From an uncultured Streptomycetaceae bacterium (GTDB taxonomy: Bacteria; Pseudomonadota; Gammaproteobacteria; Burkholderiales; SG8-41): a DNA stretch of 64,000 nucleotides. The notes beneath the pieces were generated by a model. The model was not told where the DNA came from. It saw only the letters and a list, made by a program, of their open reading frames with translations, and did not search any database. The translations under genes and the position numbers were made by a program. The stretch covers positions 16,285 to 80,284 of the forward strand of contig CAZFRR010000176.1 of NCBI GenBank assembly GCA_964521405.1. Reading direction: 5' to 3'. Every line of letters starts with the position of its first letter. The stretch's first letter is position 1. This document shows, in pieces, positions 8,799 to 56,656 of the stretch.

Positions 8799-10343
8799 TC
8801 ACGCGCCGCGCTGCGCGCCGGGCCGGCCGTCTTCCACCGTCCAGGCGGTGAGCGTTTGCACCGCAGCATCGGGCTCTTTCTCGTTTACGGCGCGCATCCG
8901 CGCGGTGCAGCGCTTGGGGGTAAGTTCCATCGCGGTATAGCCGTGGCGGGTGCCGTTGGCGTAGAGAATGTGAGGGTTCTCCGCCTGCCACGCCTGCGTC
9001 TGCTTTGGCGAAGGGCCTTGGGAAGTGATGGAGCCGCCGCCGAACTCCGTCGCTACCGCCGGCAGCCCCGGCCGGTCGAAATCCACCTTCAGGTTGGCGA
9101 CCCCGAAAGTATGCACGTCACCGCTCAACACCAGCGGGTTGGCGACGCGCTTGTCCTCGATGAACCCGAGCAGCCGCTCGCGCGCCTTCGGGTAGCCGTC
9201 CCAGCCGTCGGTCCAGAAAGACTGGCTTTCGCCCAGGGCGCGATCCACCTGCGCCATCAGGGTCTGCTGCGCGATCACGTTCCAGCGCGTGCCCGCGGCG
9301 GCAAGCCCGTCGTGCAGCCATTGCTCCTGCTTTTCCCCGAGCAGCGTGAGTTTCGGATCGAGCCGCTCCGGGCATTCACCCGCGCGAATGACATTGCTGC
9401 CGCCCCGGCCGGGGCGCGTGCACACCTGGTAGGAGCGGTACTGGCGGTCATCGAGGACGTAGAACGTTGCGAGCCCCCCGAAATTCAACCGCGTGTAGAT
9501 GAGGGCATCGGGGCCGCGCGGCTGCATGTGCGGCGGCAGCGGCAGGTGCTCGTAGTAGGCCTGGTAGGCCGCGGCGCGCCGCTGCAGGAAATCGTCGCGG
9601 GCAGCGAGAAACTGGGAGCGGTCGTTCGCGTAATCGTTCTGCACCTCGTGGTCGTCCCAGGTGGAGATCCAGGGGCATGCCGCGTGCGCCGCCTGCAGAT
9701 CGATGTCGCTCTTATAGAGGGCGTAGCGGTTGCGATACTCATCGAGCGTGACCGGCTCCCCGGCATCGTGCTTGCGAACGTGGTTGCTCCCCCAGGACGA
9801 TTCGTAGATGTAGTCGCCCAGGTGAACCACCAGGTCGAGATCCTCCCGCGCCAGGTGGCGGTAGGCGGTGTAATGGCCCTGCTCGAACTGCTGGCAGGAG
9901 CCGAAGGCGAAGCGCAGCCGCTCCGCCGCGGCGCCCGCGGCGGGTGCGGTGCGGGTCCTGCCGGTCGGGCTCGTGACCCCGCCGGCATGAAAACGATAGA
10001 AATAGTCGTGCGCCGGCGCCAATCCGGCGGCTTCGGCGTGCACCGAATGTGCCCACTGCGGCGTGGCGGTTTCGGTGCCGCGGCGCACGATTTTCCGGAA
10101 GGCTTCGTCGGCGGCGATTTCCCATGCTACTTCGACCCCGGCCTGAGGCATGCCGCCGCCGACATGCGGCTCGGGGGCGAGCCGTGTCCACAGCACGACC
10201 CCTTCCGGCGTGGGGTAGCCCGAAGCGATGCCGAGCGAGAACGGGTTGCGGTCGAACTTCGGCTGCGCGCGGAGGCGGGCAAGCGGCGCCGCGGCGGCCA
10301 GGCCGGCGGCGAGAGTCAGGAACCTGCGGCGGGAGACGGACAT
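8799..10343 (-). CDS. phoD: alkaline phosphatase D family (PhoD), Tat-exported
   Basis: Twin-arginine signal MSVSRRRFLTLAAGLAAAAPLARLRA. Metallophosphatase motifs (GDYIYE, WDDHEV, SGDVH). Confidence 0.85.
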   Translation of the reverse strand: MSVSRRRFLTLAAGLAAAAPLARLRAQPKFDRNPFSLGIASGYPTPEGVVLWTRLAPEPHVGGGMPQAGVEVAWEIAADEAFRKIVRRGTETATPQWAHSVHAEAAGLAPAHDYFYRFHAGGVTSPTGRTRTAPAAGAAAERLRFAFGSCQQFEQGHYTAYRHLAREDLDLVVHLGDYIYESSWGSNHVRKHDAGEPVTLDEYRNRYALYKSDIDLQAAHAACPWISTWDDHEVQNDYANDRSQFLAARDDFLQRRAAAYQAYYEHLPLPPHMQPRGPDALIYTRLNFGGLATFYVLDDRQYRSYQVCTRPGRGGSNVIRAGECPERLDPKLTLLGEKQEQWLHDGLAAAGTRWNVIAQQTLMAQVDRALGESQSFWTDGWDGYPKARERLLGFIEDKRVANPLVLSGDVHTFGVANLKVDFDRPGLPAVATEFGGGSITSQGPSPKQTQAWQAENPHILYANGTRHGYTAMELTPKRCTARMRAVNEKEPDAAVQTLTAWTVEDGRPGAQRGA

Positions 10344-10455: not shown

Positions 10456-10558
10456 TTCTCTGCGTCTCGGCGGTTCAAATATTTGTAATGGTTTTCTTGG
10501 CGGTCTTGGCGACTTGGCGGTTCGATTCAATTCTTGTTTTTCCTTGTGTCTTGGCGGT
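10456..10558. repeat. three same-orientation copies of the (C)TTGGCGG-type arm ending GGCGGTTCAA / GGCGGTTCGA / GGCGGTGAG, with no complementary partner nearby
   Basis: ttctctgcgtctcggcggttcaa (10456-10477). ttcttggcggtcttggcgacttggcggttcga (10494-10523). ttgtgtcttggcggtgag (10543-10558). They lie in the phoD / DUF2520-gene divergent region. Confidence 0.7.
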
Positions 10559-12665: not shown

Positions 12666-13622
12666 ATGAAGAACGAAGTGAAGCTCTACGTTGGTGAATC
12701 GCTCGGGAAATACGGCTTTCCCGACGGGCACCCGTTCGGGACCGACCGCCAGGACGCGTTCTGGAAGGAGGCGGTGAAGCAGGGACTCGACAAGCGCGCC
12801 GCGATTGCCGACCCGCGGATGGCGGCGCAGGAGGAGTTGCACCGCTTCCACACGCCCGAGCACGTGGCCTGGGTGAAGGAAAGATCCGATGAGGGCCACG
12901 GCACCATCGACTACGGCGACACGCCGGCCTGTCCGGGCATTTATGAGGCGGCGGCGACGGTGGCGGGCTCGGCCCTGCATGGCCTCGACACCATCATGAG
13001 CGGCGGCGCGCAGCGCACTTTCCAGCCGATCGGGGGCCTGCACCACGCGCGCCGCGGCACGGCGGCGGGATTCTGCGTGTTCAACGACGTCGGCGTCGTC
13101 ATCGACACGCTGCGCAGCCAGTTCGGGGTGAAGCGCATCGCCTACGTGGACATCGACGTGCATCACGGCGACGGGCTCTACTACCCGTACGAGGAAGACC
13201 CGGATCTCATCTACGCCGACATCCACCAGGACGGGCGCACGCTTTACCCCGGGACCGGCCACGCGCATGAGACCGGCAAGGGCGCGGCGAAGGGCACCAA
13301 GCTCAACATCCCGCTGATGCCGGGGATGGGAGACAAGGAGTTTCTCGCTGCGTGGCCCCAGGTCGAGGCGCACCTGCGCCAGTTCAAGCCGGAATTTTTC
13401 CTGTTCCAGTGCGGCGCCGACAGCCTCGCGGGCGATCCGCTCGCGATGCTCCAGTACACGCCGGCCCCGCACGCGCACGCGGCGAAGCGCTTGTGCGTGC
13501 TGGCCAACGAGATGGCCGGCGGGCGCATCATGGGTTTTGGTGGTGGGGGCTACAACCGTGCCAATCTCGCCGCGGCGTGGTGCGGGGTTCTCGATGAGTT
13601 CATTAAAGGTTCGGAAAGCTGA
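12666..13622 (+). CDS. histone deacetylase-family (AcuC/acetylpolyamine amidohydrolase-like) deacetylase
   Basis: HHARRGTAAGFCVFNDVGV and DIDVHHGDG are active-site motifs. Confidence 0.85.
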   Translation: MKNEVKLYVGESLGKYGFPDGHPFGTDRQDAFWKEAVKQGLDKRAAIADPRMAAQEELHRFHTPEHVAWVKERSDEGHGTIDYGDTPACPGIYEAAATVAGSALHGLDTIMSGGAQRTFQPIGGLHHARRGTAAGFCVFNDVGVVIDTLRSQFGVKRIAYVDIDVHHGDGLYYPYEEDPDLIYADIHQDGRTLYPGTGHAHETGKGAAKGTKLNIPLMPGMGDKEFLAAWPQVEAHLRQFKPEFFLFQCGADSLAGDPLAMLQYTPAPHAHAAKRLCVLANEMAGGRIMGFGGGGYNRANLAAAWCGVLDEFIKGSES

Positions 13623-13687
13623 ACCACGAAGGGCGCCAAGGAAGAATCAAGAACAATATTGAACCGCCAAGACGCCATGACGCCAGG
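13621..13687. repeat. left-type arms (GAACCACGAAGG..., TTGAACCGCCAAGACGCCATGACGCCAGG)
   Basis: Complementary in design to the arms at 15546-15616, about 1.9 kb away on the other side of the low-GC islet. Confidence 0.65.
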
Positions 13688-13703
13688 AAATAAAAAGTCG
13701 GCA

Positions 13704-13782
13704 GATTAACATTGCGCATCACCGGCAGGACAAGGCAAGCGAAGCGCCGCATTCGACTGCCCGGTGCATGCGCGGGTTAGGC
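13704..13782 (-). other. attC-like recombination site following the methyltransferase cassette
   Basis: Minus-strand reading: GCCTAAC-ccgcgcatgcaccgggcag-...-ctgccggtgatgcgcaat-GTTAATC. This gives an RYYYAAC inverse core, an imperfect palindrome with two unpaired bases, and a GTTRRRY-like core. Length 79 bp, starting 20 nt after the stop codon. Confidence 0.5.
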
Positions 13783-13802
13783 AGGCTATTCATTTCTTAA
13801 AC

Positions 13803-14612
13803 CTATAGCTGGGCAAGTAACACGTGGGTGCGCATCGGGTACCTGAGTTCACCGTCTGTCACGTGAGGCTCTAGCGTCGCCCTCACCTGCTTGAAAAACC
13901 CATCGCGCCCACTTTCAGGGAGAAGAGCCACGGCATGCCGAGTAGACGGTGACCCCAGGGTCATTCCGTCAATAAACGATTCGAGGGACGTGAAGTGAGA
14001 CACTCCATCCTCGGTGCGTAGTTGTATCCGAGAGAACCCTGCACGAGTAGCCGCGTCGCGGATATCCTCTGGATTGGAGAACGAGCATGCACGCTTTGCC
14101 GCTGATGCATCAACGCCTTGACTCTCCAGTGCCTGAACCACCGCATAATGTCCCTTGTTGTACTCAAGGGGCCCCCAAATACTTGCCGCTAGCCGACCCG
14201 ACGGCTTGAGAATCCGACGAATCTCAGCGAGGCCGGCGTGACGATCTGGCAAGAATTGGAGGCCCTGAAGGCAAAGACAGAGATCAAACGTGGCGTCTTT
14301 GAGTGGCATTTGGAGCGCACTTGCGCAATGCCATTCCATCGGAGTCCTTGTGCCCCGCGCCAGCCTACGCGCCACTTCAATCACGCCTGAATCGATATCA
14401 ACGCCCACGACTTTTCCAGCCGGACCAACGAATCGTGCGGCCACCCTTGCCCCGATACCGGTGCCACAGGCTACGTCGGCCACGTGCTCTCCCGATTGCG
14501 GAGCTATGAAGCCAACGACAAGCTCCGTCCAGTGAGCGAACATTCCCGGGACCATGTGTCTCTCATATGCCTCTGCAGTCGTCGTGTCGATCGGCTGATT
14601 TTCTTGTGACAT
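13803..14612 (-). CDS. class I SAM-dependent methyltransferase
   Basis: VADVACGTGIGARVAA is motif I. Lower GC than the flanks. RBS ggaggtgg lies upstream. Confidence 0.8.
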   Translation of the reverse strand: MSQENQPIDTTTAEAYERHMVPGMFAHWTELVVGFIAPQSGEHVADVACGTGIGARVAARFVGPAGKVVGVDIDSGVIEVARRLARGTRTPMEWHCASALQMPLKDATFDLCLCLQGLQFLPDRHAGLAEIRRILKPSGRLAASIWGPLEYNKGHYAVVQALESQGVDASAAKRACSFSNPEDIRDAATRAGFSRIQLRTEDGVSHFTSLESFIDGMTLGSPSTRHAVALLPESGRDGFFKQVRATLEPHVTDGELRYPMRTHVLLAQL

Positions 14613-14653
14613 ATTCGCTCCACCTCCTTCCCAGTACGGTGCCGCGGTCGCCT

Positions 14654-14745
14654 GCCTAACGTCTTGGCGTGCGGCGGGCCGGCGCGATGGTCCAAGCTAC
14701 TGCGACGCTAGCGGCCCGTCCGCACCACCTAAAAGATAGAACGCT
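14654..14745 (-). other. attC-like site following the cupin cassette (degenerate inverse core)
   Basis: The minus strand ends in GTTAGGC (complement of 14654-14660). The internal imperfect palindrome pairs ggtgcggacgggccg with cggcccgccgcacgcc, with one unpaired base. The R''-side is poorly conserved. Confidence 0.4.
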
Positions 14746-14766
14746 CACGAATAACCCTACGCAATG

Positions 14767-15057
14767 TCAACCCTTCTGCCGCTTCAATTCGACTTCGACG
14801 AAGGTATAGAGAGCGTTCCCAACATTGAACACATCGTGCTCAACGCCGGCTTTTCGGAAATAGGCTTTTCCGGTTTGCAATTGCATGACGCTCTCGCCCG
14901 CCGGTCCGGTGGCTTTGATCGTTCCCGCGGTCAGGGGGACCACGGCGTAGTCGTAATTGTGGCGGTGATAGCCCGTCGCGTCGCCGGGCCCGAGCCGCCA
15001 TTCCGTGATGCGAACGTCATCGTTCTCCTCGTGGATCAGAGGTTTTACTGTGCTCAT
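14767..15057 (-). CDS. cupin domain protein (96 aa)
   Basis: GYHRHNYDYAVVPLTAG...AGVEHDVFN matches cupin motifs 1 and 2. Small cassette-sized ORF in the low-GC islet. Confidence 0.7.
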   Translation of the reverse strand: MSTVKPLIHEENDDVRITEWRLGPGDATGYHRHNYDYAVVPLTAGTIKATGPAGESVMQLQTGKAYFRKAGVEHDVFNVGNALYTFVEVELKRQKG

Positions 15058-15329
15058 GATGGTCTCCTATTCAAGAACAAAAGCCCGCCGATTTCACGAC
15101 GGGGTGCGGCATGCATCGGAAATGCGGGACAGACATGTGTGATAGAGCGTTCTAACGTTCAATCATAAGCAAAAGTGCTTATTAGCATGGTCGCTTCCAG
15201 TCTTTGTTTCGTCATTCTGCCTTTGAATCATTGCGCTAAAGAACTGTATATTTCTACAGTATCCACGATGAACGGCTATTTATGGGTCAAGCCCCTGATT
15301 CCCTCCGGGATTCTTCAAAAGCATCCCAT

Positions 15330-15505
15330 GCGCCCCGCCTGATCGAGCGTTTTCGCGCGGCGATCCGCTCGCGTCACTACAGCCGGTGCATCGAATGAAC
15401 AAGGGCGGGCGAGGAGTGAAGATCCCGCTCGATTCCAGCGGCGTTGGCCAGCCGCCGGTCGCGCGGGACGTCACCGCGGATTACAGTGAGCGGTCGCCCG
15501 GCTAA
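15330..15505 (+). pseudogene. integron-integrase-like tyrosine recombinase remnant (N-terminal and C-terminal ends only, internal deletion plus frameshift)
   Basis: 15339-15398 encodes LIERFRAAIRSRHYSRCIE*, compared with IntI LDQLRERIRYLHYSLRTE. 15395-15505, in another frame, encodes MNKGGRGVKIPLDSS..., compared with the IntI C-terminus KVGGAGVRSPLD. About 280 codons of the catalytic core are missing. Confidence 0.5.
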
Positions 15506-15545
15506 CGCGATCCAGGCAATCCCGTATATTGAAGCGTAATTCTGT

Positions 15546-15616
15546 TTCTCTCTGCGGCTCGGCGGTTCAATTGTCGTTCTTGAGTTTCTTGGCGGCCTTG
15601 GCGTCTTGGCGGTGAG
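15546..15616. repeat. right-type arms (…CTCGGCGGTTCAA; TTCTTGGCGGCCTTGGCGTCTTGGCGGTGAG)
   Basis: ttctctctgcggctcggcggttcaa (15546-15570) and ttcttggcggccttggcgtcttggcggtgag (15586-15616). The latter is the near reverse complement of 13659-13687. Confidence 0.7.
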
Positions 15617-15624
15617 AGGTTCAG

Positions 15625-17043
15625 CTAACCGAGCAGCCGCTGCACCCGCCGCGCCGCGGCGACGTGCCCGTCCTTGAGGAACCGCTCGTGGTTCTCGTCC
15701 ACCTTGTCAAGGTCGTAGCGGTAGCTCGCCATCATGCCGTAAGACTGCCGCATGCCGCGGGCGGAGGTGTCCGCCAGCCAGTAGATGCGGCTCACCCGCG
15801 CGCCGTTGTGGAGATGGAACTGCGCGACCGGGTCGAGCGGCTGGTTGCCGGATTTTTCCTGCAGGAGGTAGCGGGCGCACAGTTTTTCCAGCAGCTCGCG
15901 CAGCGCGCTCCCGAAGCGGGCGTCGGTCAGCCATTCGGGACGAGCCAGCGCGTCGGCGATCGCGGTGCGGGGATCGGGATGCCCAAGCGCCTGGGCGAAC
16001 TTCGCTGCTTCCGCTTCCGGCAAAACCGCTCGCCCTTCGGCGAGCGCCTGGTCCAGCCACTTGCGAAAGCCGGGAAGCGGCGAGAGAGTTGAGAATATCT
16101 TCAGGCGCGGCAGGTCACGCCGCAGATCCTCGATCACGCGTTTCAGCAGCAGGTTGCCAAGGCTGATGCCGCGGAGCCCCTTCTGCGTGTTGGAGATCGA
16201 GTAGAAGACCGCGGTGTCGGCGGCGCCCGGGTCCTGCAGCGGCGCGCTCTCGTCGAGCAGCAGCTGAACGCTGTCCGGGGTGCCGCTCAACAGCGCGATC
16301 TCGACGAAGATCATCGGCTCGTCGGGCAGTCGCGGATGGAAAAACGCGTAGCAGCGGCGGTCGGTGTCGAGGCGGTTCCTGAGATCGTTCCACGAGGCGA
16401 TCGGGTGCACGGCCTCGTAGGTCATGAGCTTTTCGAGCACGAGCGCCGGCGACTGCCAGGTGATGCGCTTCAACTCGAGAAAGCCCGGGTCGAACCAGCT
16501 CTCGAGCAGCCCGTCGAGCTCGACCCGCAGCACTTCGAGCGCGGGTTCGTGCGGCAGCAGCGCCAGCAGGTCGGCGCGCAGGTCGACGAGAAACTTCACG
16601 CCCTCCGGCAGGAGGTTGAACTGCGCAAAAAACTTCGCGCGCGGCGCATTCAACGCGATGCGCAGCCGGGCCTCCGCCTGGCTCAGTTCGGCGTCGTTAG
16701 CCGCGCCCCGCATCGCCGCGATCGCGCTCTCGAGCGCGTCACGATCGGGTGCAAACGCATGGGTTATCAGGTTGAGGATGGCGGCGCGCTGCGGCAGGTC
16801 GGCGCCGCGGTAGAGCGCCGCGATGCGCCCGGCGCGCGCGCGCGCGGTGACCTCGCTGCCGCGATGGGCCCGGATTTCCTCGAGCAGCGGCTCGATCCGT
16901 TCGATCAGTCGCGCGGCGGCCTGATCGGCGGCGGTTGCCCCGGCTGTGGGGAAAACCGATGTGGCAAGCCGGTGCCACCAGTGGCGCAGCCGCTCTAAGG
17001 CGGTGAGCGGGTTCGGTTTGCTGGCCACGCGGTTCATAGACAT
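15625..17043 (-). CDS. malonyl-CoA decarboxylase family protein
   Basis: FFHPRLPDEPMIFVEIAL, FYSISNTQKGLRGISLGNLLLKRV and FSTLSPLPGFRKWL are MCD-family blocks. Start ambiguous: M at 17043, 17037 or 17097. Confidence 0.8.
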   Translation of the reverse strand: MSMNRVASKPNPLTALERLRHWWHRLATSVFPTAGATAADQAAARLIERIEPLLEEIRAHRGSEVTARARAGRIAALYRGADLPQRAAILNLITHAFAPDRDALESAIAAMRGAANDAELSQAEARLRIALNAPRAKFFAQFNLLPEGVKFLVDLRADLLALLPHEPALEVLRVELDGLLESWFDPGFLELKRITWQSPALVLEKLMTYEAVHPIASWNDLRNRLDTDRRCYAFFHPRLPDEPMIFVEIALLSGTPDSVQLLLDESAPLQDPGAADTAVFYSISNTQKGLRGISLGNLLLKRVIEDLRRDLPRLKIFSTLSPLPGFRKWLDQALAEGRAVLPEAEAAKFAQALGHPDPRTAIADALARPEWLTDARFGSALRELLEKLCARYLLQEKSGNQPLDPVAQFHLHNGARVSRIYWLADTSARGMRQSYGMMASYRYDLDKVDENHERFLKDGHVAAARRVQRLLG

Positions 17044-17208
17044 CTTTCTTCGATATTCCTGCCATGCCGATTCTAGCCAGCCGCCGTGACAGTTCAAAGC
17101 AATTCCCGACTGGATTGATTTGAATCGATGGGCGAGTCGTCAAAAACAGACACCCACCCGCTTCCGGAGTGCTACCTCGGCATCTACCCTATAATGATCG
17201 GACATCCG

Positions 17209-23175: not shown

Positions 23176-23297
23176 GAACCGCCGAGGCGCCGAGAGAAGC
23201 AAATACAAGAATAAGATTCAGGCAAAAAGAGACTCTTCATCATCAGATGTTATTTTTTGCCATTGCTCATGTTTCTCTCGGCGTCTCGGCGGTTCAA
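23176..23297. repeat. inverted repeat with 8-nt-unit arms and GAACCGCC / GGCGGTTC termini
   Basis: gaaccgccgaggcgccgagagaagc (23176-23200) pairs with tttctctcggcgtctcggcggttcaa (23272-23297). The spacer is AT-rich. Confidence 0.85.
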
Positions 23298-39861: not shown

Positions 39862-40653
39862 ATGCGCATCACGCTCACCACGCTGCAGAAAATGGCGCAG
39901 GAAGGCTCTAGAATCGCGATGCTGACCTGCTACGACGCGAGCTTCGCCGCCGTGCTCGAGGAGGCCGGCGTGGATTCGCTGCTGGTCGGGGATTCGCTCG
40001 GCAACGTGCTGCAGGGGCACGAGTCCACGCTGCCGGTGACACTGCGCGACATGGTCTATCACACCCAGTGCGTCGCGCGCGGTTCCAAGCGCGCCTTCAT
40101 CGTCGGCGATATGTCGTTCGGCAGCTTCCAGGTGTCGCCGGAGGAGACTTTGCGCAACGCCGCGGAGTTGATGGCCGCCGGCGCCCACATGGTGAAGATC
40201 GAGGGCGGCCGGCCGATGCTCGAAACCATCGAGTTTCTCACCGACCGCGGCATCCCGGTGTGCGGGCACTTGGGATTGACGCCGCAGTCGGTGCACGCGC
40301 TTGGCGGCTACCGGGTGCAGGGCAGGGGCGAGGATGCCGGGCAGCAGTTGTTGAGGGAGGCGAAGCAGCTCGAGCAGGCCGGCGCCGGCATGATCGTGCT
40401 GGAAGCGATACCCGCTACTCTGGCGCGTGAAGTCACCGCGGCCATCACGGTACCCACCATCGGCATTGGCGCCGGCGTGGATTGCTCGGGGCAGGTGCTG
40501 GTGCTGCACGACATGCTTGACGTCTATCCCGGCAAGAAAGCCAAGTTCGTGAAGAACTACATGCGCCCGACCGGCTCGATCCAGGGTGCGGTCGAGCTCT
40601 ACGTCAAGGAAGTGAAGGCCAGGACCTTCCCGGGACCGGAGCACAGCTTCTAG
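39862..40653 (+). CDS. panB: 3-methyl-2-oxobutanoate hydroxymethyltransferase
   Basis: [24 protein letters not shown] and VKIEGG motifs. Confidence 0.95.
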
Positions 40654-42087: not shown

Positions 42088-43119
42088 ATGCGTCTCGATG
42101 ACTTTGATTACGAGCTGCCGGAGGAACTGATCGCCCAGTTTCCCGCCGGCGTGCGCGGCGCGGATCGCCTGCTGCACCTCGATGGCGGGACTGGGGCGAT
42201 CGCCGACCTCCGGTTCGGCGATCTCGCCGGGCTCGTTGCGCCGGGCGATGTCGTCGTATTGAACGACACGCGCGTGATCAAGGCGCGGCTCCTGGGCAGG
42301 AAGCAAAGCGGCGGCCGGGTCGAAGTGATGGTCGAACGCGTGCTCGGGGCCAATGAAGTGCTGGCGCAAATCGGCGCCAACCATCCCACGCGCACCGGCA
42401 CCACGCTCTATCTGGCCGATGCGCTCGAAGCGACGGTGCTCGCGCGCGAGCGCGAGTTTTTCCGGCTGCGCTTCGAGGGGTGCGAGGATGTACACGCGCT
42501 GCTCGAGCGCCACGGCAGCGTGCCGCTGCCCCTGTACATCGCGCGCGGCGCCGCGGACAGCGACAGGGAGCGCTACCAGACGGTCTACGCGCGTGAGCGC
42601 GGCGCGGTCGCCGCGCCGACCGCGGGCCTGCATTTCGACCAGGCGATGCTGGACGCGCTGCAGGGCAAGGGCGTGGCGCTTGCCTACGTTACGCTGCATG
42701 TCGGCGCCGGCACGTTCCAGCCGGTGCGCGTGCAGGACCTCGCTCAGCACGAAATGCACGGCGAGTGGTATCACGTGCCGCAGGCTACGGTGGATGCGAT
42801 CAACCAGACGCGGGAGAGAGGCGGGCGCGTGCTGGCGGTGGGGACGACAACGCTGCGCGCGCTGGAAAGCGCGGCGGCCGGCGGGGCGCTGGAGGCCGGG
42901 CGTGACGAAACGCGGCTCTTCGTCCTCCCCGGCTATCGCTTCCGCGTGGTCGAGCGCCTCATCACCAACTTCCACCTGCCCCGGTCGACGCTGCTGATGC
43001 TGGTGTCGGCCTTTGGCGGCAGGGATAATGTCCGCCGCGCCTACCGGCACGCGATCGGCGAGCGCTATCGCTTCTACAGTTACGGCGACGCGATGCTGAT
43101 TGAACGTGCAGAAAATTAA
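42088..43119 (+). CDS. queA: S-adenosylmethionine:tRNA ribosyltransferase-isomerase
   Basis: MRLDDFDYELPEELIAQFP, AAPTAGLHF and VGTTTLRALES. Confidence 0.95.
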   Translation: MRLDDFDYELPEELIAQFPAGVRGADRLLHLDGGTGAIADLRFGDLAGLVAPGDVVVLNDTRVIKARLLGRKQSGGRVEVMVERVLGANEVLAQIGANHPTRTGTTLYLADALEATVLAREREFFRLRFEGCEDVHALLERHGSVPLPLYIARGAADSDRERYQTVYARERGAVAAPTAGLHFDQAMLDALQGKGVALAYVTLHVGAGTFQPVRVQDLAQHEMHGEWYHVPQATVDAINQTRERGGRVLAVGTTTLRALESAAAGGALEAGRDETRLFVLPGYRFRVVERLITNFHLPRSTLLMLVSAFGGRDNVRRAYRHAIGERYRFYSYGDAMLIERAEN

Positions 43120-43266
43120 CCGCCAAGACGCCGAGAAAGACAAACACAGCATTTCAACCGCCGAGGCGCCGAGAGAAACGGAGACAAGGTATTTCTTTTT
43201 GTTTTGGTTTTCTCTATCTCGGCGTCTCGGCGGTTAATTATTGCATTTGCCTTTCTTGGCGGTTGA
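43116..43266. repeat. nested pair of inverted repeats (outer TTAACCGCCAAGACGCC.../...CTTGGCGGTTGA; inner TCAACCGCCGAGGCGCCGAGAG.../...CTCGGCGTCTCGGCGGTTAA)
   Basis: Outer arms 43116-43141 and 43250-43266. Inner arms 43154-43189 and 43208-43237. The queA TAA lies in the outer left arm. Confidence 0.85.
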
Positions 43267-46920: not shown

Positions 46921-47074
46921 TTGAACCGCCAAGACGCCAAGACGCCATGACAACAATGCGAAAACATTCGATTCGATTTCATCCGGAATGCCTTGGCGCA
47001 AGGCGGCGCGGGACGACGCGCATCGCTTTCAATTCATTCCGGATTGCCTTGGCGTCTTGGCGTCTTGGCGGTTA
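46921..47074. repeat. inverted repeat with 8-nt-unit arms (CGCCAAGA x2-3) and TTGAACCGCC / GGCGGTTA termini
   Basis: ttgaaccgccaagacgccaagacgccat (starting the base after the secD TGA) pairs with gccttggcgtcttggcgtcttggcggtta. The spacer holds a partial extra right arm (tccggaatgccttggcg compared with tccggattgccttggcg). Confidence 0.9.
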
Positions 47075-48849: not shown

Positions 48850-49911
48850 CTATTCCGGCTTGAGGCCTGCGTCGCTGATCACCTTGCGCCAGCGTGCGGT
48901 TTCCTCCCGGATGAGCCGGGCGAAAGCCTCGGGAGTGAGCGCGCCGGGTTCGAAGGCCTGCTCGGCCAGCGCCTCGCGCAGTTCGGCAGAACCCAGAACG
49001 GAATTCAGCTCGCGGTTGAGCCGCGCGATCACCGTGCCGGGCGTGCGCGCCGGAACGAACACGCCTACCCATAGCGAGGTCTGATAGCCCGGAAACCCCG
49101 ATTCCGCGATGGTCGGCGTCTGGGGGAGCGCGGATAACCGTTGCGGGCTGGTGACGCCGATCGCGCGCAGCTTGCCGGCTCTTACGTGCGGCAACGAGGC
49201 CGCGATGGTGCTGATATTCAACTGGATGCGGCCCGCCAGCAGGTCGATCAACGCGAGGTTGGATCCCTTGTAGGGCACGTGCACCATGTCGATCCCGGCC
49301 GCCTTCTTGAGGAGTTCGCCCGAGAGATGCCCGACGCTGAAGTTGCCGACGGAGGCATAGAGCAGTTTGCCGGGATTGGCGCGGGCGTAGGCGACGAACT
49401 CCCTGACGTTGGATGCCGGCAGCGCGGGATTCACGGTCAGGAAATAGGGCGAGTCACCCAGCAGCGCGACCGGCGAGAAATCCCTGACCGGGTCGTAGCC
49501 CAGCTTGGGGTTCAGGATGTGGGCAAGGGCGTGGGTCGTCGTCGTGCCGAGCCCCCACGTATAGCCGTCGGGCGCGGCGCGTGCCACCGTTTCCACGCCG
49601 ATCGTGCCGCTCGCGCCGGACCGGTTGTCGACCACGATGGGCTGGCCGAGGCGCTCGCCCGCCCGCAGCGCGACGAGCCGCGCCACGACGTCGGTGGTCG
49701 TTCCCGGCGGAAAAGGGACGACGAAGCGGACCGGCCGTGATGGAAACGCCGGCTCTGCGGCATGCACCGCGCCCAACATCCACAACTGAACCGCCAAGAC
49801 GCCAAGCCCGCCAAGGAAAGCAGAATAGAACCGGATTGAAAAGACTCCACACGTTCTCAAGCCTTCTGCATTGTCGCTACTGGCTGAAATAGTGTAATTC
49901 ACGAAAATCAT
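48850..49911 (-). CDS. Bug/TctC-family tripartite tricarboxylate transporter substrate-binding protein (start uncertain)
   Basis: RPVRFVVPFPPGTTTDVVARL..VVDNRSGASGTIG are Bug-family blocks. The only plausible signal peptide (SIRFYSAFLGGLGVLAVQLWMLGAVHA) is encoded by the repeat arm at 49787-49821. Confidence 0.75.
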   Translation of the reverse strand: MIFVNYTISASSDNAEGLRTCGVFSIRFYSAFLGGLGVLAVQLWMLGAVHAAEPAFPSRPVRFVVPFPPGTTTDVVARLVALRAGERLGQPIVVDNRSGASGTIGVETVARAAPDGYTWGLGTTTTHALAHILNPKLGYDPVRDFSPVALLGDSPYFLTVNPALPASNVREFVAYARANPGKLLYASVGNFSVGHLSGELLKKAAGIDMVHVPYKGSNLALIDLLAGRIQLNISTIAASLPHVRAGKLRAIGVTSPQRLSALPQTPTIAESGFPGYQTSLWVGVFVPARTPGTVIARLNRELNSVLGSAELREALAEQAFEPGALTPEAFARLIREETARWRKVISDAGLKPE

Positions 49912-55312: not shown

Positions 55313-56656
55313 ATGACCGCCGCGAAAACGCTTGCCGAATTCGCCGTCAATCTGAAATACGAAGCCATCCCGCCGGAAGTCATCGAGCGCGCCAAGGACT
55401 GCATCATCGACACGGTCGGCGCCTGCGCCTTCGGCTCCCAGATGCCGTGGACGCAAATCGTCATCGAGCACGGCAAGCGCAACAGCGCGCCCGGTGAATG
55501 CAGCGTGTTCGGCACGCCCGTCAAGCTGCGCGCGCCGTTTGCCTGCCTCGCCAACGGCGCATCGGCGCACGCCTTCGAGCTCGATGCCCTGTGCGAGCCG
55601 AGCGTCGGCATCCATCCCGGCGCCGCGTTGTGCGTGCCGGGACTCGCCCCCTCGCAGGGCCGCAAGGGCAACGGGCGCGCGCTGCTCTCCGCCGTCGTCG
55701 CCGGCTACGAGGTGCTGTATCGCATCGGCGACGCGGCGAACCAGTCGATCGAGAAGGTCGGTTTCCATTCGCCGGGGGTGATCGGCGCGTTCGGCACCGC
55801 GGTGGTGATCGGCCGGCTGTTCGAGATCAGCGCGGAGAAGATGGCGCATGCGCTCGGCATCGCAGGCTCGCTCGGCTCCGGGCTGATGGAGTTTTCGAGG
55901 ACGGGCGGTATGGTGAAGCGCCTGCATCTCGGCCGCTCGGCGGAAAGCGGTTTCATGGCGGCGGTGCTGGCGCGAGACGGCTACACCGGTCCCGCGGGCG
56001 TATTCGAGGGCAAGTACGGCTTCCTCAACACGTTCTGCCGCAACGCGGAGCCGGCGCGCCTGACGCAGGAGCTCGGCACGACGTGGCACGTGATGAAGAC
56101 CAAGATCAAGCGCTATTCCTGCCACGCGACCTCACAGGTCCCGGTAACGCTCGCGCTCGACCTCAAGGCGCAGCACCAGCTCGCCGGTGACGACGTCGCG
56201 GGCATCACCATTGCCGCCAACGAGAAAACGGTGAGCCATCACGCCATCAACGAGCCGCAGGACATGACGATGGCGCAGTACAGCACGCCGTTCAACGTCG
56301 CGCTCGCGCTCTACCTGGACCCGATGGACCCGCGGTCGTTTTCCGAGAAGAGCCTTGCCGACCCGAAGATCCGCGCGCTGGCGAAGGGCGCCAAGGTCGA
56401 GCTCTACCCGGGCGCATCGAGCCCTGTGGCGCAGGATTGCCGGGTCACTTTCAAGTTGAAGAACGGCAAGGAAGTGACCGCGCAGGGCAACAATTTCAAG
56501 GGCACGCCGACGATGCCGCTCTCGCGCGACGAGCTGCGCGAGAAATTCCTCAAGCTCACCGCGCACAAGGACCGCGCGAAGGCGGACCGGCTGTTCTCGC
56601 AGCTTGCGGACGCGGAGAAGGTGGCGGACTTCAGCACCCTCGATTTCGCGCTCTAA
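55313..56656 (+). CDS. MmgE/PrpD-family protein (copy A)
   Basis: LAEFAVNLKYEAIPPEVIERAKDCIIDTVG.., HAFELD and KRYSCHA are PrpD-fold blocks. Confidence 0.85.
   Translation: MTAAKTLAEFAVNLKYEAIPPEVIERAKDCIIDTVGACAFGSQMPWTQIVIEHGKRNSAPGECSVFGTPVKLRAPFACLANGASAHAFELDALCEPSVGIHPGAALCVPGLAPSQGRKGNGRALLSAVVAGYEVLYRIGDAANQSIEKVGFHSPGVIGAFGTAVVIGRLFEISAEKMAHALGIAGSLGSGLMEFSRTGGMVKRLHLGRSAESGFMAAVLARDGYTGPAGVFEGKYGFLNTFCRNAEPARLTQELGTTWHVMKTKIKRYSCHATSQVPVTLALDLKAQHQLAGDDVAGITIAANEKTVSHHAINEPQDMTMAQYSTPFNVALALYLDPMDPRSFSEKSLADPKIRALAKGAKVELYPGASSPVAQDCRVTFKLKNGKEVTAQGNNFKGTPTMPLSRDELREKFLKLTAHKDRAKADRLFSQLADAEKVADFSTLDFAL

What the first reader, a model, noticed from the sequence alone, without database searches (positions are those of the whole stretch)
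13704..15505. Decayed integron-like module: deleted intI remnant plus two cassettes with attC-like sites, in a lower-GC islet
Plus strand 15339-15398 encodes LIERFRAAIRSRHYSRCIE and 15395-15505 encodes NKGGRGVKIPLDSS... These match the extreme N- and C-terminal signatures of integron integrases (IR.LHYS.RTE and GG.GV.SPLD), with the roughly 280-codon core missing.

Upstream of it and on the opposite strand, as in integrons, lie two small genes: cupin 14767-15057 and methyltransferase 13803-14612. Each is followed by an imperfect palindrome bounded by core-like sites:

- GTTAGGC at 14654-14660 (complement);
- GCCTAAC...GTTAATC over 13782-13704 (complement), with unpaired bases in the stem.

The methyltransferase is flanked by the inverted 11-mer GTTAGGCAGGC / GCCTGCCTAAC. 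That is the pattern expected from consecutive attC core and inverse-core sites.

By eye, the GC content of this stretch is clearly below that of the flanks.
Basis: partly seen in the sequence, partly recalled or inferred. Interest (0 to 1): 0.65.

Follow-up and report, generated by a model that had tools for sequence, protein, structure and literature searches.

The report
Decayed chromosomal integron, two cassettes
This is the wreck of a chromosomal integron (a bacterial gene-capture device): its integrase gene has lost 844 bases, but its insertion site and two captured genes remain. Such decay is common and already described.

Summary

- **intI remnant.** Window 15282-15505 (+) is an integron-integrase (intI) gene that lost exactly 844 nt. 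The junction is at 15395|15396 and the reading frame is broken. Related uncultured Burkholderiales carry an intact or frameshifted intI at the same place, just after the malonyl-CoA decarboxylase gene. That intact protein passes the integron-integrase model TIGR02249 with 462 bits against a cut-off of 265; XerC/D models score about 140.
- **attC sites.** Site 13704-13782 (-) scores 38 bits (E 1e-8). Site 14654-14741 (-) scores 21 bits (E 1e-3).
- **Cassettes.** Both also occur in other metagenomes in different contexts, and similarity breaks exactly at the predicted G|TT crossovers.
- **New details.** The attI junction lies at 15155|15156. A near-consensus LexA box (15242-15261) overlaps the intI promoter. 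A point mutation (AAC to ATC, position 14736) damages the cupin cassette's attC. The remnant has substitutions at invariant IntI positions.
- **Composition.** The islet is the lowest-GC stretch of the window (0.567 against 0.644).

Verdict: a real, frozen sedentary integron, equivalent to a CALIN (attC cluster without integrase) with an intI scar. It is a new member of a known kind, of modest interest.

The parts
13704..13782 (-). attC site 2, belonging to the methyltransferase cassette. R'' is GCCTAAC (13782-13776) and R' is GTTAATC (13710-13704); the crossover lies between G13710 and T13709.
   Evidence: The attC covariance model R1 was built from 19 sites of relatives and none from the window. 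It gives this site 38.1 bits, E 1.1e-8, the best hit in the window. The bottom strand folds as a hairpin with a partly paired R box and two bulged bases on its 3' arm, z -2.5. In runs X7 and X8 the same cassette (about 95.5% identical) diverges from the window left of 13707, which is inside R'.
13803..14612 (-). Cassette ORF 2: a class I SAM-dependent methyltransferase of 269 aa with unknown substrate.
   Evidence: Pfam Methyltransf_11 at E 4e-22, with Methyltransf_25 and Ubie_methyltran also matching. PDB relatives are generic O-/C-methyltransferases. GC3 is 0.58. Against the X7 variant, 10 changed codons are synonymous and 8 are non-synonymous.
13710..14659 (-). Cassette 2 as a mobile unit, 950 bp, running from T14659 to G13710. 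Its 5' end TTAGGCAGGC is complementary to its own R'' region GCCTGCCTAA.
   Evidence: Exact inverted 11-mer (I17). Boundaries are taken from the R1 hits and from the context break in X7/X8.
14654..14741 (-). attC site 1, belonging to the cupin cassette. R' is GTTAGGC (14660-14654). R'' is TTCTATC (14741-14735), a damaged box in which the conserved AAC has become ATC at position 14736.
   Evidence: R1 gives 20.8 bits, E 1e-3, the second-best hit in the window. The highest non-integron scores are at most 16.6 bits in 221 kb of relatives' loci. Runs X4 and X5 carry this cassette with 14736 A>T, which restores TTCTAAC. The bottom strand forms the L-box hairpin with a bulged T but no R box. The site is close in sequence to an attC in L057.
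14767..15057 (-). Cassette ORF 1: a small single-domain cupin of 96 aa with unknown function.
   Evidence: Pfam Cupin_2 at 30.5 bits. PDB 3LAG (RPA4178) at E 4e-26 and 2FQP (BP2299) at E 1e-22, both uncharacterised. All 4 differences from the X5 variant are synonymous.
14660..15155 (-). Cassette 1 as a mobile unit, 496 bp, running from T15155 to G14660. Its 5' end TTAGAACGCTC is complementary to its own R'' region GAGCGTTCTA(T)C.
   Evidence: Inverted repeat I11. An X4 contig with the same cassette (7 differences in 484 nt) diverges from the window right of 15159. Homology to the attI of L042 starts at 15154.
15156..15241 (.). attI region, with the recombination junction at 15155|15156 (G|TTAGAAC on the minus strand).
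   Evidence: The region is 87% identical to L042 from 15154 rightwards, while L042 carries a different first cassette to the left (G|TTGGGC...). Four contigs in X4, X5 and X7 share 15152/3-15193 but have unrelated sequence on the cassette side.
15223..15252 (+). Promoter-like site for intI (Pint): TTGAAT, 18-nt spacer, TATATT.
   Evidence: This is the only sigma-70-like match in 13600-15650. That is a consensus match only; 0.9 sites are expected by chance in the region.
15242..15261 (+). LexA (SOS) box AACTGTATATTTCTACAGTA, overlapping the -10 hexamer of Pint.
   Evidence: It matches 17 of 20 positions of TACTGTATATATATACAGTA; none of 100 shuffles gave a match. It is the only CTGT-N8-ACAG in the window. 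Of 72 related intI loci, 10 have such a box in the same zone, and these account for 10 of the 13 boxes found in 367 kb. The consensus is as given in PMC3108266.
15282..15398 (+). intI 5' remnant: a 38-codon ORF MGQAPDSLRDSSKASHAPRLIERFRAAIRSRHYSRCIE*. Homology to intact intI runs up to 15395.
   Evidence: Window 15154-15395 aligns to L042 437-678 at 87% nt identity. The IntI profile matches at positions 7-37 with E 2.6e-4. R34C and T35I fall at positions that are R in 30 of 31 and T in 31 of 31 relatives.
15395..15396 (+). Deletion junction. The 844 nt between L042 positions 678 and 1523 are missing, which removes the whole catalytic core and shifts the reading frame.
   Evidence: Logan contigs L113 and L114, from two separate runs, are 100% identical to the window; L114 (16184-14755) runs across the junction and L113 (15386-13656) stops just short of it. 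Depth in X1 is uniform at 16.9.
15396..15505 (+). intI 3' remnant: (M)NKGGRGVKIPLDSSGVGQPPVARDVTADYSERSPG*, in the +1 frame relative to the 5' remnant.
   Evidence: tblastn with the L008 IntI matches residues 316-347 at 66% identity, E 1e-6. Nucleotide identity is 80-83% to the intI 3' ends of L008 and L011. S327I falls at a position that is S in 31 of 31 relatives.

Best explanation
The islet (about 13686-15553) is a sedentary chromosomal integron. It sits between the convergent genes for an HDAC-like deacetylase and for malonyl-CoA decarboxylase, in an uncultured freshwater-sediment Burkholderiales bacterium.

**Original working (established knowledge of integrons).** A LexA-repressed promoter drove intI on the + strand. 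After SOS induction, the IntI recombinase captured circular, promoterless cassettes at attI by recombining with their folded bottom-strand attC hairpins. It also excised cassettes by attC x attC recombination. Cassettes are read leftwards from the attI side.

**Present state (shown).** An 844-nt deletion removed the whole catalytic core of intI and shifted the frame. What is left is a 38-codon 5' stub and an out-of-frame 3' stub, both of which have since picked up substitutions at invariant positions. attI, the LexA box and the Pint-like promoter are intact. Two cassettes remain: a cupin cassette of 496 bp and a SAM-methyltransferase cassette of 950 bp. The terminal attC is well formed. The attC between the cassettes has lost the conserved AAC of its R'' box through a single A-to-T change.

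**Consequence (inferred).** The array is frozen in cis. The two ORFs are intact and conserved, and so are probably still useful to the host. An IntI supplied in trans could probably still use attI and the terminal attC, but would handle the cupin attC poorly.
For: **Orthology of the intI remnant**
- tblastn shows the two stubs about 900 nt apart, directly after the MCD gene, in relatives L008 and L011.
- L008 encodes an intact 350-aa protein that scores 462 bits on TIGR02249 (cut-off 265). XerC and XerD models score about 140 bits, below their cut-offs.
- The best PDB match of that protein is VchIntIA (2A3V) at 302 bits, against 109 bits for a XerC-like chain.
- L042 is 87% nt identical to the window across attI, Pint and the intI 5' end. 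It fixes the deletion at 844 nt.
- A profile of 31 IntI relatives hits only the two stubs in the six-frame window.

**attC sites**
- Model R1, trained only on sites next to related intI genes, finds both sites on the cassette strand as hits 1 and 2 of the window.
- R1 also recovers untrained sites in L008, L002, L007 and L011.
- The training sites show 90.5% pairing and 13 pairs with compensatory changes.

**Cassette mobility**
- The cupin cassette in X4/X5 and the methyltransferase cassette in X7/X8 occur in other contexts. The breaks fall at 15159/15160 and at 13707, within the conserved core bases next to the predicted G|TT points.
- Each cassette's 5' end is complementary to its own R'' box (I11, I17).

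**Other support**
- LexA box.
- Foreign base composition.
- Not an assembly artefact.
- Drift in the remnant at invariant positions.
Against: - No promoter for the cassettes (Pc) was found on the minus strand by the consensus scan. Expression of the cassettes is therefore not shown.
- The only RNA-labelled run with exact contigs (X3) has an ambiguous library description and may contain DNA.
- The cupin attC scores only 20.8 bits, and its R box does not fold.
- IntegronFinder's generic attC model could not be run. My model is specific to this family, and its training sites were picked partly by folding criteria.
- Pfam and NCBIfam models do not recognise the concatenated remnant on their own. 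Family assignment of the window copy therefore rests on orthology.
- Only 64 kb of the genome is visible, so a second, intact intI elsewhere cannot be excluded.
Confidence: 0.93

Rival explanations
1. This is a CALIN (attC cluster lacking an integrase) that arose from cassettes inserted at a secondary chromosomal site by an integrase encoded elsewhere. The neighbouring recombinase-like peptides would then be unrelated or accidental.
For: CALINs are common, and 95% of them have no recognisable intI pseudogene nearby (PMC4889954). Family HMMs do not call the concatenated remnant.
Against: The stubs are collinear with an intact intI of relatives at the very same locus, at 80-87% nt identity, and are followed by a homologous attI and promoter. 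The first cassette abuts that attI exactly at the crossover.
Confidence: 0.02
2. The internal deletion is an assembly or binning artefact, and the organism really has a full-length intI.
For: The window comes from a metagenome. Repeats flank the islet, and many short contigs pile up on them.
Against: Contigs assembled independently from two runs (L113, L114) are 100% identical to the window, and L114 runs across the junction. Depth in X1 is flat at 16.9 across 13736-15499, with no alternative joint inside intI. The remnant also carries substitutions at invariant residues and a frame shift, as a true pseudogene would.
Confidence: 0.02
3. The 1.87-kb islet is a unit mobilised by the roughly 80-nt inverted repeats that bracket it (13611-13690 and 15549-15632). 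It would then be a MITE-like or composite element that merely carries integron debris.
For: Inverted repeats I1, I2, I8 and I9 flank the islet in mirror order; I2 is 15 of 15 complementary. Contigs in X1 join the two arms across short spacers.
Against: The repeat is a genome-wide element that starts at stop codons: 22 copies in the window against 3.5 expected. It occurs singly or as close inverted pairs elsewhere. Convergent genes that each carry their own 3' units give the same picture. Relatives L008 and L011 hold the integron at this locus without those arms. The joints seen in X1 carry different spacer sequences and very high depth, so they are other copies of the repeat and not excision products.
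Confidence: 0.03
4. The palindromes are ordinary terminators or REP-type repeats, and the resemblance to attC and IntI is coincidence.
For: An exact 11-mer inverted repeat is expected by chance in 2.2 kb (my estimate). z-scores of the DNA folds are only -2.3 to -2.5.
Against: R1 E-values are 1e-8 and 1e-3, with both sites in the correct strand and spacing. The sites are close in sequence to attC sites in arrays next to intact intI genes (L045, L057, L008). The cassette breakpoints fall at the core sites.
Confidence: 0.01

Closest known systems
CALIN elements and intI pseudogenes as defined by IntegronFinder (Cury et al. 2016, PMC4889954)
   Same: There are two attC sites within 4 kb and no functional intI. 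The cassettes are not resistance genes. Origin 'by loss of intI' is one of the routes that paper proposes.
   Different: Here the intI scar is still readable, but it covers only about 15% of the protein and lacks the IntI-specific region. That paper's pseudogene screen required more than 50% profile coverage, so it would miss this scar and file the locus as an orphan CALIN.
Sedentary chromosomal integrons with inactivated integrases in soil and freshwater Proteobacteria, for example Xanthomonadales (as summarised in Cambray et al. 2011, PMC3108266)
   Same: The integron sits at a fixed chromosomal locus shared by related genomes. intI is inactivated independently and in different ways among relatives: L011 by frameshift, L002 and L004 reduced to fragments, the window by internal deletion. 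Cassette content differs between relatives.
   Different: That paper reports that inactivation goes together with loss of the LexA box. Here a near-consensus LexA box is retained beside a dead intI. The host clade is uncultured Burkholderiales, and the locus lies between the MCD gene and an HDAC-like gene.
Vibrio cholerae VchIntIA (IntI4) and its VCR attC sites (PDB 2A3V)
   Same: The intact orthologue in L008 aligns over its whole length with 2A3V at 302 bits. The attC sites have the same R-box, L-box and bulged-base architecture.
   Different: The array has two cassettes rather than the very large array of V. cholerae (array size from my own knowledge, not tested here). Several attC sites of this family bulge a C on the bottom strand where canonical sites bulge a G (canonical state from my own knowledge).
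Class 1 integrons with truncated intI1
   Same: intI is truncated or deleted while attI and the cassettes are retained. A LexA box overlaps Pint (PMC3108266).
   Different: The window element is not on a transposon or plasmid and carries no resistance cassettes. The integrase is only distantly related: the L008 orthologue scores 363 bits on NF011946, below that model's cut-off of 435.

Membership tests
Complete integron (intI + attI + at least one attC; Cury et al. 2016) | A functional integron-integrase gene | tested here: not met
   844 nt, including the whole catalytic core, are missing and the frame is shifted. No other IntI-like sequence is found in the 64 kb.
Complete integron (intI + attI + at least one attC; Cury et al. 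2016) | attI next to the 5' end of intI, with cassettes co-oriented and reading away from intI | tested here: met
   The junction lies at 15155|15156, defined by L042 and by four metagenome contigs that carry different first cassettes. Both ORFs and both attC sites are on the minus strand and the intI remnant is on the plus strand.
CALIN (at least two attC sites, no intI within 4 kb) | Two or more attC sites on one strand within 4 kb | tested here: met
   R1 hits at 13704-13782 (-) and 14654-14741 (-). IntegronFinder's own model was not available.
Integron integrase (IntI; NCBIfam TIGR02249) | The protein passes the IntI-specific model and scores better than on XerC/D | tested here: inconclusive
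   The window remnant alone matches no model. Its syntenic orthologue in L008 scores 462 bits (cut-off 265), against about 140 bits on XerC/D, and matches 2A3V at 302 bits. Membership of the ancestral gene is therefore inferred by orthology.
Integron integrase (IntI; NCBIfam TIGR02249) | Tyrosine-recombinase catalytic residues and the IntI-specific extra domain are present | tested here: not met
   Residues about 38-315 are deleted in the window. The window copy is a pseudogene.
attC recombination site | R'' (RYYYAAC) and R' (GTTRRRY) boxes with conserved AAC and GTT triplets | tested here: met
   This row is site 2 (13704-13782). It has GCCTAAC and GTTAATC, with both triplets present.
attC recombination site | R'' (RYYYAAC) and R' (GTTRRRY) boxes with conserved AAC and GTT triplets | tested here: not met
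   This row is site 1 (14654-14741). R' is GTTAGGC and is intact. R'' is TTCTATC, where AAC has become ATC. The X4 and X5 variants have TTCTAAC.
attC recombination site | Imperfect palindrome whose bottom strand folds with extrahelical bases on its 3' (R''/L'') arm; length about 57-141 nt | tested here: met
   The sites are 79 and 88 nt long. Bottom-strand DNA folds show bulged bases on the 3' arm: C and C in site 2, T in site 1. Which arm should carry the bulges, and the length range, are from my own knowledge of attC structure.
attC recombination site | Bounds a discrete mobile cassette: the same cassette is found elsewhere, with the break at G|TT | tested here: met
   The cupin cassette in X4 breaks at 15159/15160. 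The methyltransferase cassette in X7 and X8 breaks at 13707.
attC recombination site | Is recombined by IntI | not testable with these tools
   This needs an in vivo or in vitro recombination assay.
SOS (LexA)-controlled intI promoter | A CTGT-N8-ACAG box overlapping the intI promoter | tested here: met
   The box at 15244-15259 overlaps the -10 hexamer TATATT at 15247-15252. LexA binding and repression were not tested.

The most novel reading that the evidence does not exclude
The locus is one snapshot of a clade-wide series. In it, an ancestral integron fixed between the MCD gene and an HDAC-like gene decays independently in different lineages of uncultured Burkholderiales. The observed states are intact, frameshifted, internally deleted, reduced to fragments, and no trace at all.

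In the window the array is frozen in cis but keeps an intact attI, an intact terminal attC and an intact LexA box, while the attC between the cassettes is damaged. An IntI supplied in trans would therefore tend to move the cupin and methyltransferase genes together as one fused two-gene cassette. That would make this a natural intermediate in two processes: the birth of multi-gene cassettes, and the origin of 'orphan' CALINs whose intI scar is too small for profile searches to see.
Probability: 0.35. Interest if true: 0.4.

Novelty: new member of a known kind. Interest (0 to 1): 0.28.

Why it matters
- It is a clean, fully resolved example of how an integron dies. Every landmark is placed to the base: the intI deletion junction, the attI crossover, both cassette boundaries, and the single mutation that disables the attC between the cassettes.
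- It shows that a locus which automated tools would file as an orphan attC cluster can still carry an integrase scar, one that covers only about 15% of the protein. That bears on the open question of where the many CALIN elements come from (PMC4889954).
- It is a counter-example to the reported link between loss of the LexA box and integrase inactivation (PMC3108266).
- It is not a new kind of system, and the two cassette genes have no known function.

Tried and rejected
- **Family models on the remnant.** Pfam and NCBIfam scans of the concatenated 74-aa remnant gave no hit. Family assignment had to come from relatives.
- **Strict pattern search.** A search for RYYYAAC...GTTRRRY with a fold filter found textbook sites in L008 but paired neither window site. 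The cupin attC has a mutated R'', and the terminal attC has GTTAATC as R', which the strict GTTRRRY pattern does not accept.
- **First alignment of the remnant.** A global MAFFT alignment against intI misplaced the 5' stub. Local alignments and blastn replaced it.
- **18-mer direct repeat (14644-14661 / 15490-15507).** I considered it as a possible third core site at the intI stop codon. I rejected it as chance: 18 of 100 shuffles give at least two matches, and 15490-15498 is homologous to the intI 3' end of L008.
- **Joints skipping about 1.9 kb in run X1.** I considered them as excision of the islet. I rejected that: they carry varied spacers and depths up to 27, and they come from other copies of a multi-copy hairpin repeat.
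- **Cassette promoter.** A consensus scan and inspection by eye found no convincing Pc on the minus strand.
- **RNA evidence.** Only X3 holds exact contigs, and its library is labelled METAGENOMIC RNA-Seq. It is not usable as proof of transcription.
- **Other relatives.** L003, L009, L012 and L015 have 0.7-3 kb between the two flanking genes but no detectable IntI or attC signal. Their content was not analysed further.
Full report
**1. Observation**

- On the + strand, an ORF starts at ATG 15282 and encodes MGQAPDSLRDSSKASHAPRLIERFRAAIRSRHYSRCIE, with its stop at 15396-15398.
- A second ORF, in the next frame, runs from 15395 to 15505 and encodes MNKGGRGVKIPLDSSGVGQPPVARDVTADYSERSPG.
- On the - strand lie a 96-aa cupin (14767-15057; Pfam Cupin_2) and a 269-aa class I SAM methyltransferase (13803-14612; Methyltransf_11/25).
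- The flanking genes are convergent. One is an HDAC-family deacetylase (12666-13622, +) and the other is malonyl-CoA decarboxylase, MCD (15625-17097, -).
- GC is 0.567 for 13686-15553 against 0.644 for the window. This is the lowest-GC stretch of that length in the window.
- GC3 is 0.58 for the methyltransferase and 0.70 for the cupin, against 0.85-0.87 in five neighbouring genes.

**2. The integrase remnant is real and orthologous to integron integrases**

I searched one genome per species for relatives of the MCD protein. This gave 32 loci, the closest being uncultured Burkholderiales and Betaproteobacteria MAGs.

tblastn of the two stubs hits L008 and L011 directly after the MCD gene. The two hits lie about 900 nt apart on the strand opposite to the MCD gene.
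- **L008** encodes an intact 350-aa protein there. It scores 462 bits on NCBIfam TIGR02249 'integron integrase' (cut-off 265). XerC and XerD models score about 140 bits, below their cut-offs. Its best solved relative is VchIntIA (2A3V) at 302 bits, against 109 bits for a XerC-like chain.
- **L011** has the gene split by a frameshift, followed by cassettes and then the HDAC-like gene.
- **L002 and L004** keep only short fragments.
- **L010** has 87 nt between the two flanking genes and no trace of an integron.

A scan of metagenome contigs with the L008 protein gave 80 more intI loci. One of them, L042, is the closest relative.
- Window 15154-15395 matches L042 437-678 at 87% nt identity.
- Window 15396-15430 matches L042 1523-1557.
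- Exactly 844 nt are therefore missing, and the junction is at 15395|15396.
- 844 is not a multiple of three, which explains the change of frame.

A profile of 31 IntI relatives, run on the six-frame translation of the whole window, hits only the two stubs. They match profile positions 7-37 (E 2.6e-4) and 318-334 (E 0.017); the next hit has E 3.

The stubs carry R34C, T35I and S327I. Those positions are R in 30 of 31 relatives, T in 31 of 31 and S in 31 of 31. This fits drift after inactivation.

Two Logan contigs from separate runs are 100% identical to the window, and one of them (L114) runs across the junction. Depth is uniform there. The deletion is therefore not an assembly artefact.

**3. 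The attC sites**

L008 has a textbook array with GCCCAAC...GTTGGGC sites after each ORF.

I collected 19 strict sites next to intI relatives, none of them from the window. I aligned them and built a covariance model, R1. It models the R box and two L-box stems, separated by single unpaired positions. On the training alignment 90.5% of cells pair, and 13 pairs show compensatory changes. One caveat applies: the sites were chosen partly by how well they fold.

R1 searched over the whole window on both strands gives these results:
- 13704-13782 (-): 38.1 bits, E 1.1e-8.
- 14654-14741 (-): 20.8 bits, E 1e-3.
- Nothing else scores better than E 0.03.

Over 221 kb of relatives' loci the highest non-integron scores are at most 16.6 bits. 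R1 also recovers untrained sites in L008, L002, L007 and L011.

As single-stranded DNA, the bottom strand of site 2 folds into a hairpin with a partly paired R box and two bulged bases on its 3' arm. Site 1 forms the L-box hairpin with a bulged T, but its R box does not form.

The reason is a single base. The R'' box of site 1 reads TTCTATC. The same cassette in two other sediment metagenomes (X4, X5) has T instead of A at 14736, which gives the canonical TTCTAAC.

**4. Cassette boundaries and attI**

Each cassette's 5' end is complementary to its own R'' box, as expected for a unit that once circularised.
- Methyltransferase cassette: TTAGGCAGGC pairs with GCCTGCCTAA.
- Cupin cassette: TTAGAACGCTC pairs with GAGCGTTCTA(T)C (I17, I11).

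Independent contexts confirm the crossover points.
- An X4 contig carries the cupin cassette with 7 differences in 484 nt. It diverges from the window right of 15159.
- Contigs in X7 and X8 carry the methyltransferase cassette at about 95.5% identity. They diverge left of 13707, inside R'.
- L042 and four contigs in X4, X5 and X7 share the attI side (from 15152-15154 rightwards) but have unrelated first cassettes.

The units are therefore:
- attI, with its junction at 15155|15156;
- cassette 1, 15155 to 14660 (496 bp);
- cassette 2, 14659 to 13710 (950 bp).

All differences in the cupin ORF are synonymous. In the methyltransferase ORF, 10 changed codons are synonymous and 8 are not. Both genes therefore look conserved.

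**5. Regulation**

AACTGTATATTTCTACAGTA (15242-15261) matches the LexA-box consensus of beta- and gamma-proteobacteria at 17 of 20 positions. None of 100 shuffles gave such a match. It is the only CTGT-N8-ACAG in the window. It overlaps the -10 hexamer of the only promoter-like site in the region, which faces intI.

Among 72 related intI loci, 10 have such a box in the same zone. These account for 10 of the 13 boxes found in 367 kb. SOS control of intI is well established, and the consensus is taken from PMC3108266.

No cassette promoter was found. RNA evidence is limited to one ambiguous library.

**6. What it is and how it works**

This is a sedentary chromosomal integron that has lost its recombinase.
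- Shown: the anatomy, the orthology, the deletion, the attC model scores, the cassette breakpoints and the mutated R'' box.
- Inferred from established integron biology: the former SOS-induced capture and excision cycle; the present immobility in cis; the likely poor recombination of the damaged cupin attC; and the possibility that an IntI acting in trans could still use attI and the terminal attC.

**7. Comparison with what is known**

In IntegronFinder's terms the locus is a CALIN with an intI pseudogene (PMC4889954). That study found recognisable pseudogenes near only 15 of 279 CALINs, using a screen that required more than 50% profile coverage. The scar here would fail that screen.

Integrase inactivation is reported for 43-46% of intI homologues, is especially common in soil and freshwater bacteria, and usually goes together with loss of the LexA box (PMC3108266). 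Here the box is retained.

None of this lies outside the known kind.

**8. Things that are not part of the integron**

The roughly 80-nt inverted repeats around the islet belong to a genome-wide repeat at gene 3' ends: 22 hits against 3.5 expected. They are very abundant in the metagenome. They appear mirrored here because the two flanking genes converge.

**9. Verdict**

This is a new member of a known kind, with interest of about 0.28.

Noticed in passing
window 13611-13690 and 15549-15632; also 10460-10558, 23178-23293, 43119-43234, 46925-47072, 49790-49804: A genome-wide repeat, (T)GAACCGCCAAGACGCCAAG and its CCGAG variant, begins at or next to stop codons. It occurs singly, in tandem, or as inverted pairs 60-110 nt apart. 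There are 22 hits against 3.5 expected, and its depth in metagenome X1 is 500-900 against 17 for unique sequence. Two nested units flank the integron islet in mirror order.
   Followed up: partly
window 14644-14661 and 15490-15507: An 18-mer direct repeat, GCGGTCGCC(T/C)G(C/G)CTAACG, links the start of the methyltransferase cassette with the intI stop-codon region. I judged it chance-level (18 of 100 shuffles), and 15490-15498 is homologous to the intI 3' end of L008.
   Followed up: yes
window 15084-15103 (-): A terminator-like GC-rich hairpin followed by a T-run lies inside the 98-nt leader of the cupin cassette, just upstream of its ribosome-binding site. It could attenuate read-through from the attI side, or it could be chance (1 site found, 1.7 expected).
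   Followed up: no
window 55735-55795 (+) and 40183-40267 (-): Weak hits of the attC model (15.7 and 13.9 bits; E 0.03 and 0.09), with unpaired L-box positions. They are probably noise.
   Followed up: no
L008 11673-11750 and 12360-12437; L045 (two sites); window 13704-13782: Several attC sites of this family bulge a C on the bottom strand (a G on the top strand) at the first extrahelical position, where canonical attC sites have a bottom-strand G (canonical state from my own knowledge). Other sites of the family, such as L008 12947-13042, have the canonical base.
   Followed up: partly
L042 525-545, compared with window 15242-15261: The closest relative with an intact intI has a degraded LexA box (CTGT-N8-ACCG). 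The window, with a dead intI, has a perfect CTGT-N8-ACAG. This is the opposite of the trend reported in the literature.
   Followed up: partly
L011 about 9470-9520; L015 about 2050-2110: Short tandem repeats lie in the same intergenic locus of relatives: the heptamer GTGA(A/G/T)TC in L011 and the octamer GGGAGAGC in L015.
   Followed up: no
L007 9615-9702 (-) and 10994-11057 (-): Two good attC-model hits (31-32 bits) lie downstream of the MCD gene but on the strand opposite to the arrays of L008, L011 and the window. No intI was detected there. This may be an inverted array.
   Followed up: no
run X5, contig 8, against window 15152-15290: A related attI/intI-promoter contig matches 15152-15179 and 15251-15290, but 15180-15250, which includes the LexA-box zone, is replaced by 70 unrelated letters.
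   Followed up: no
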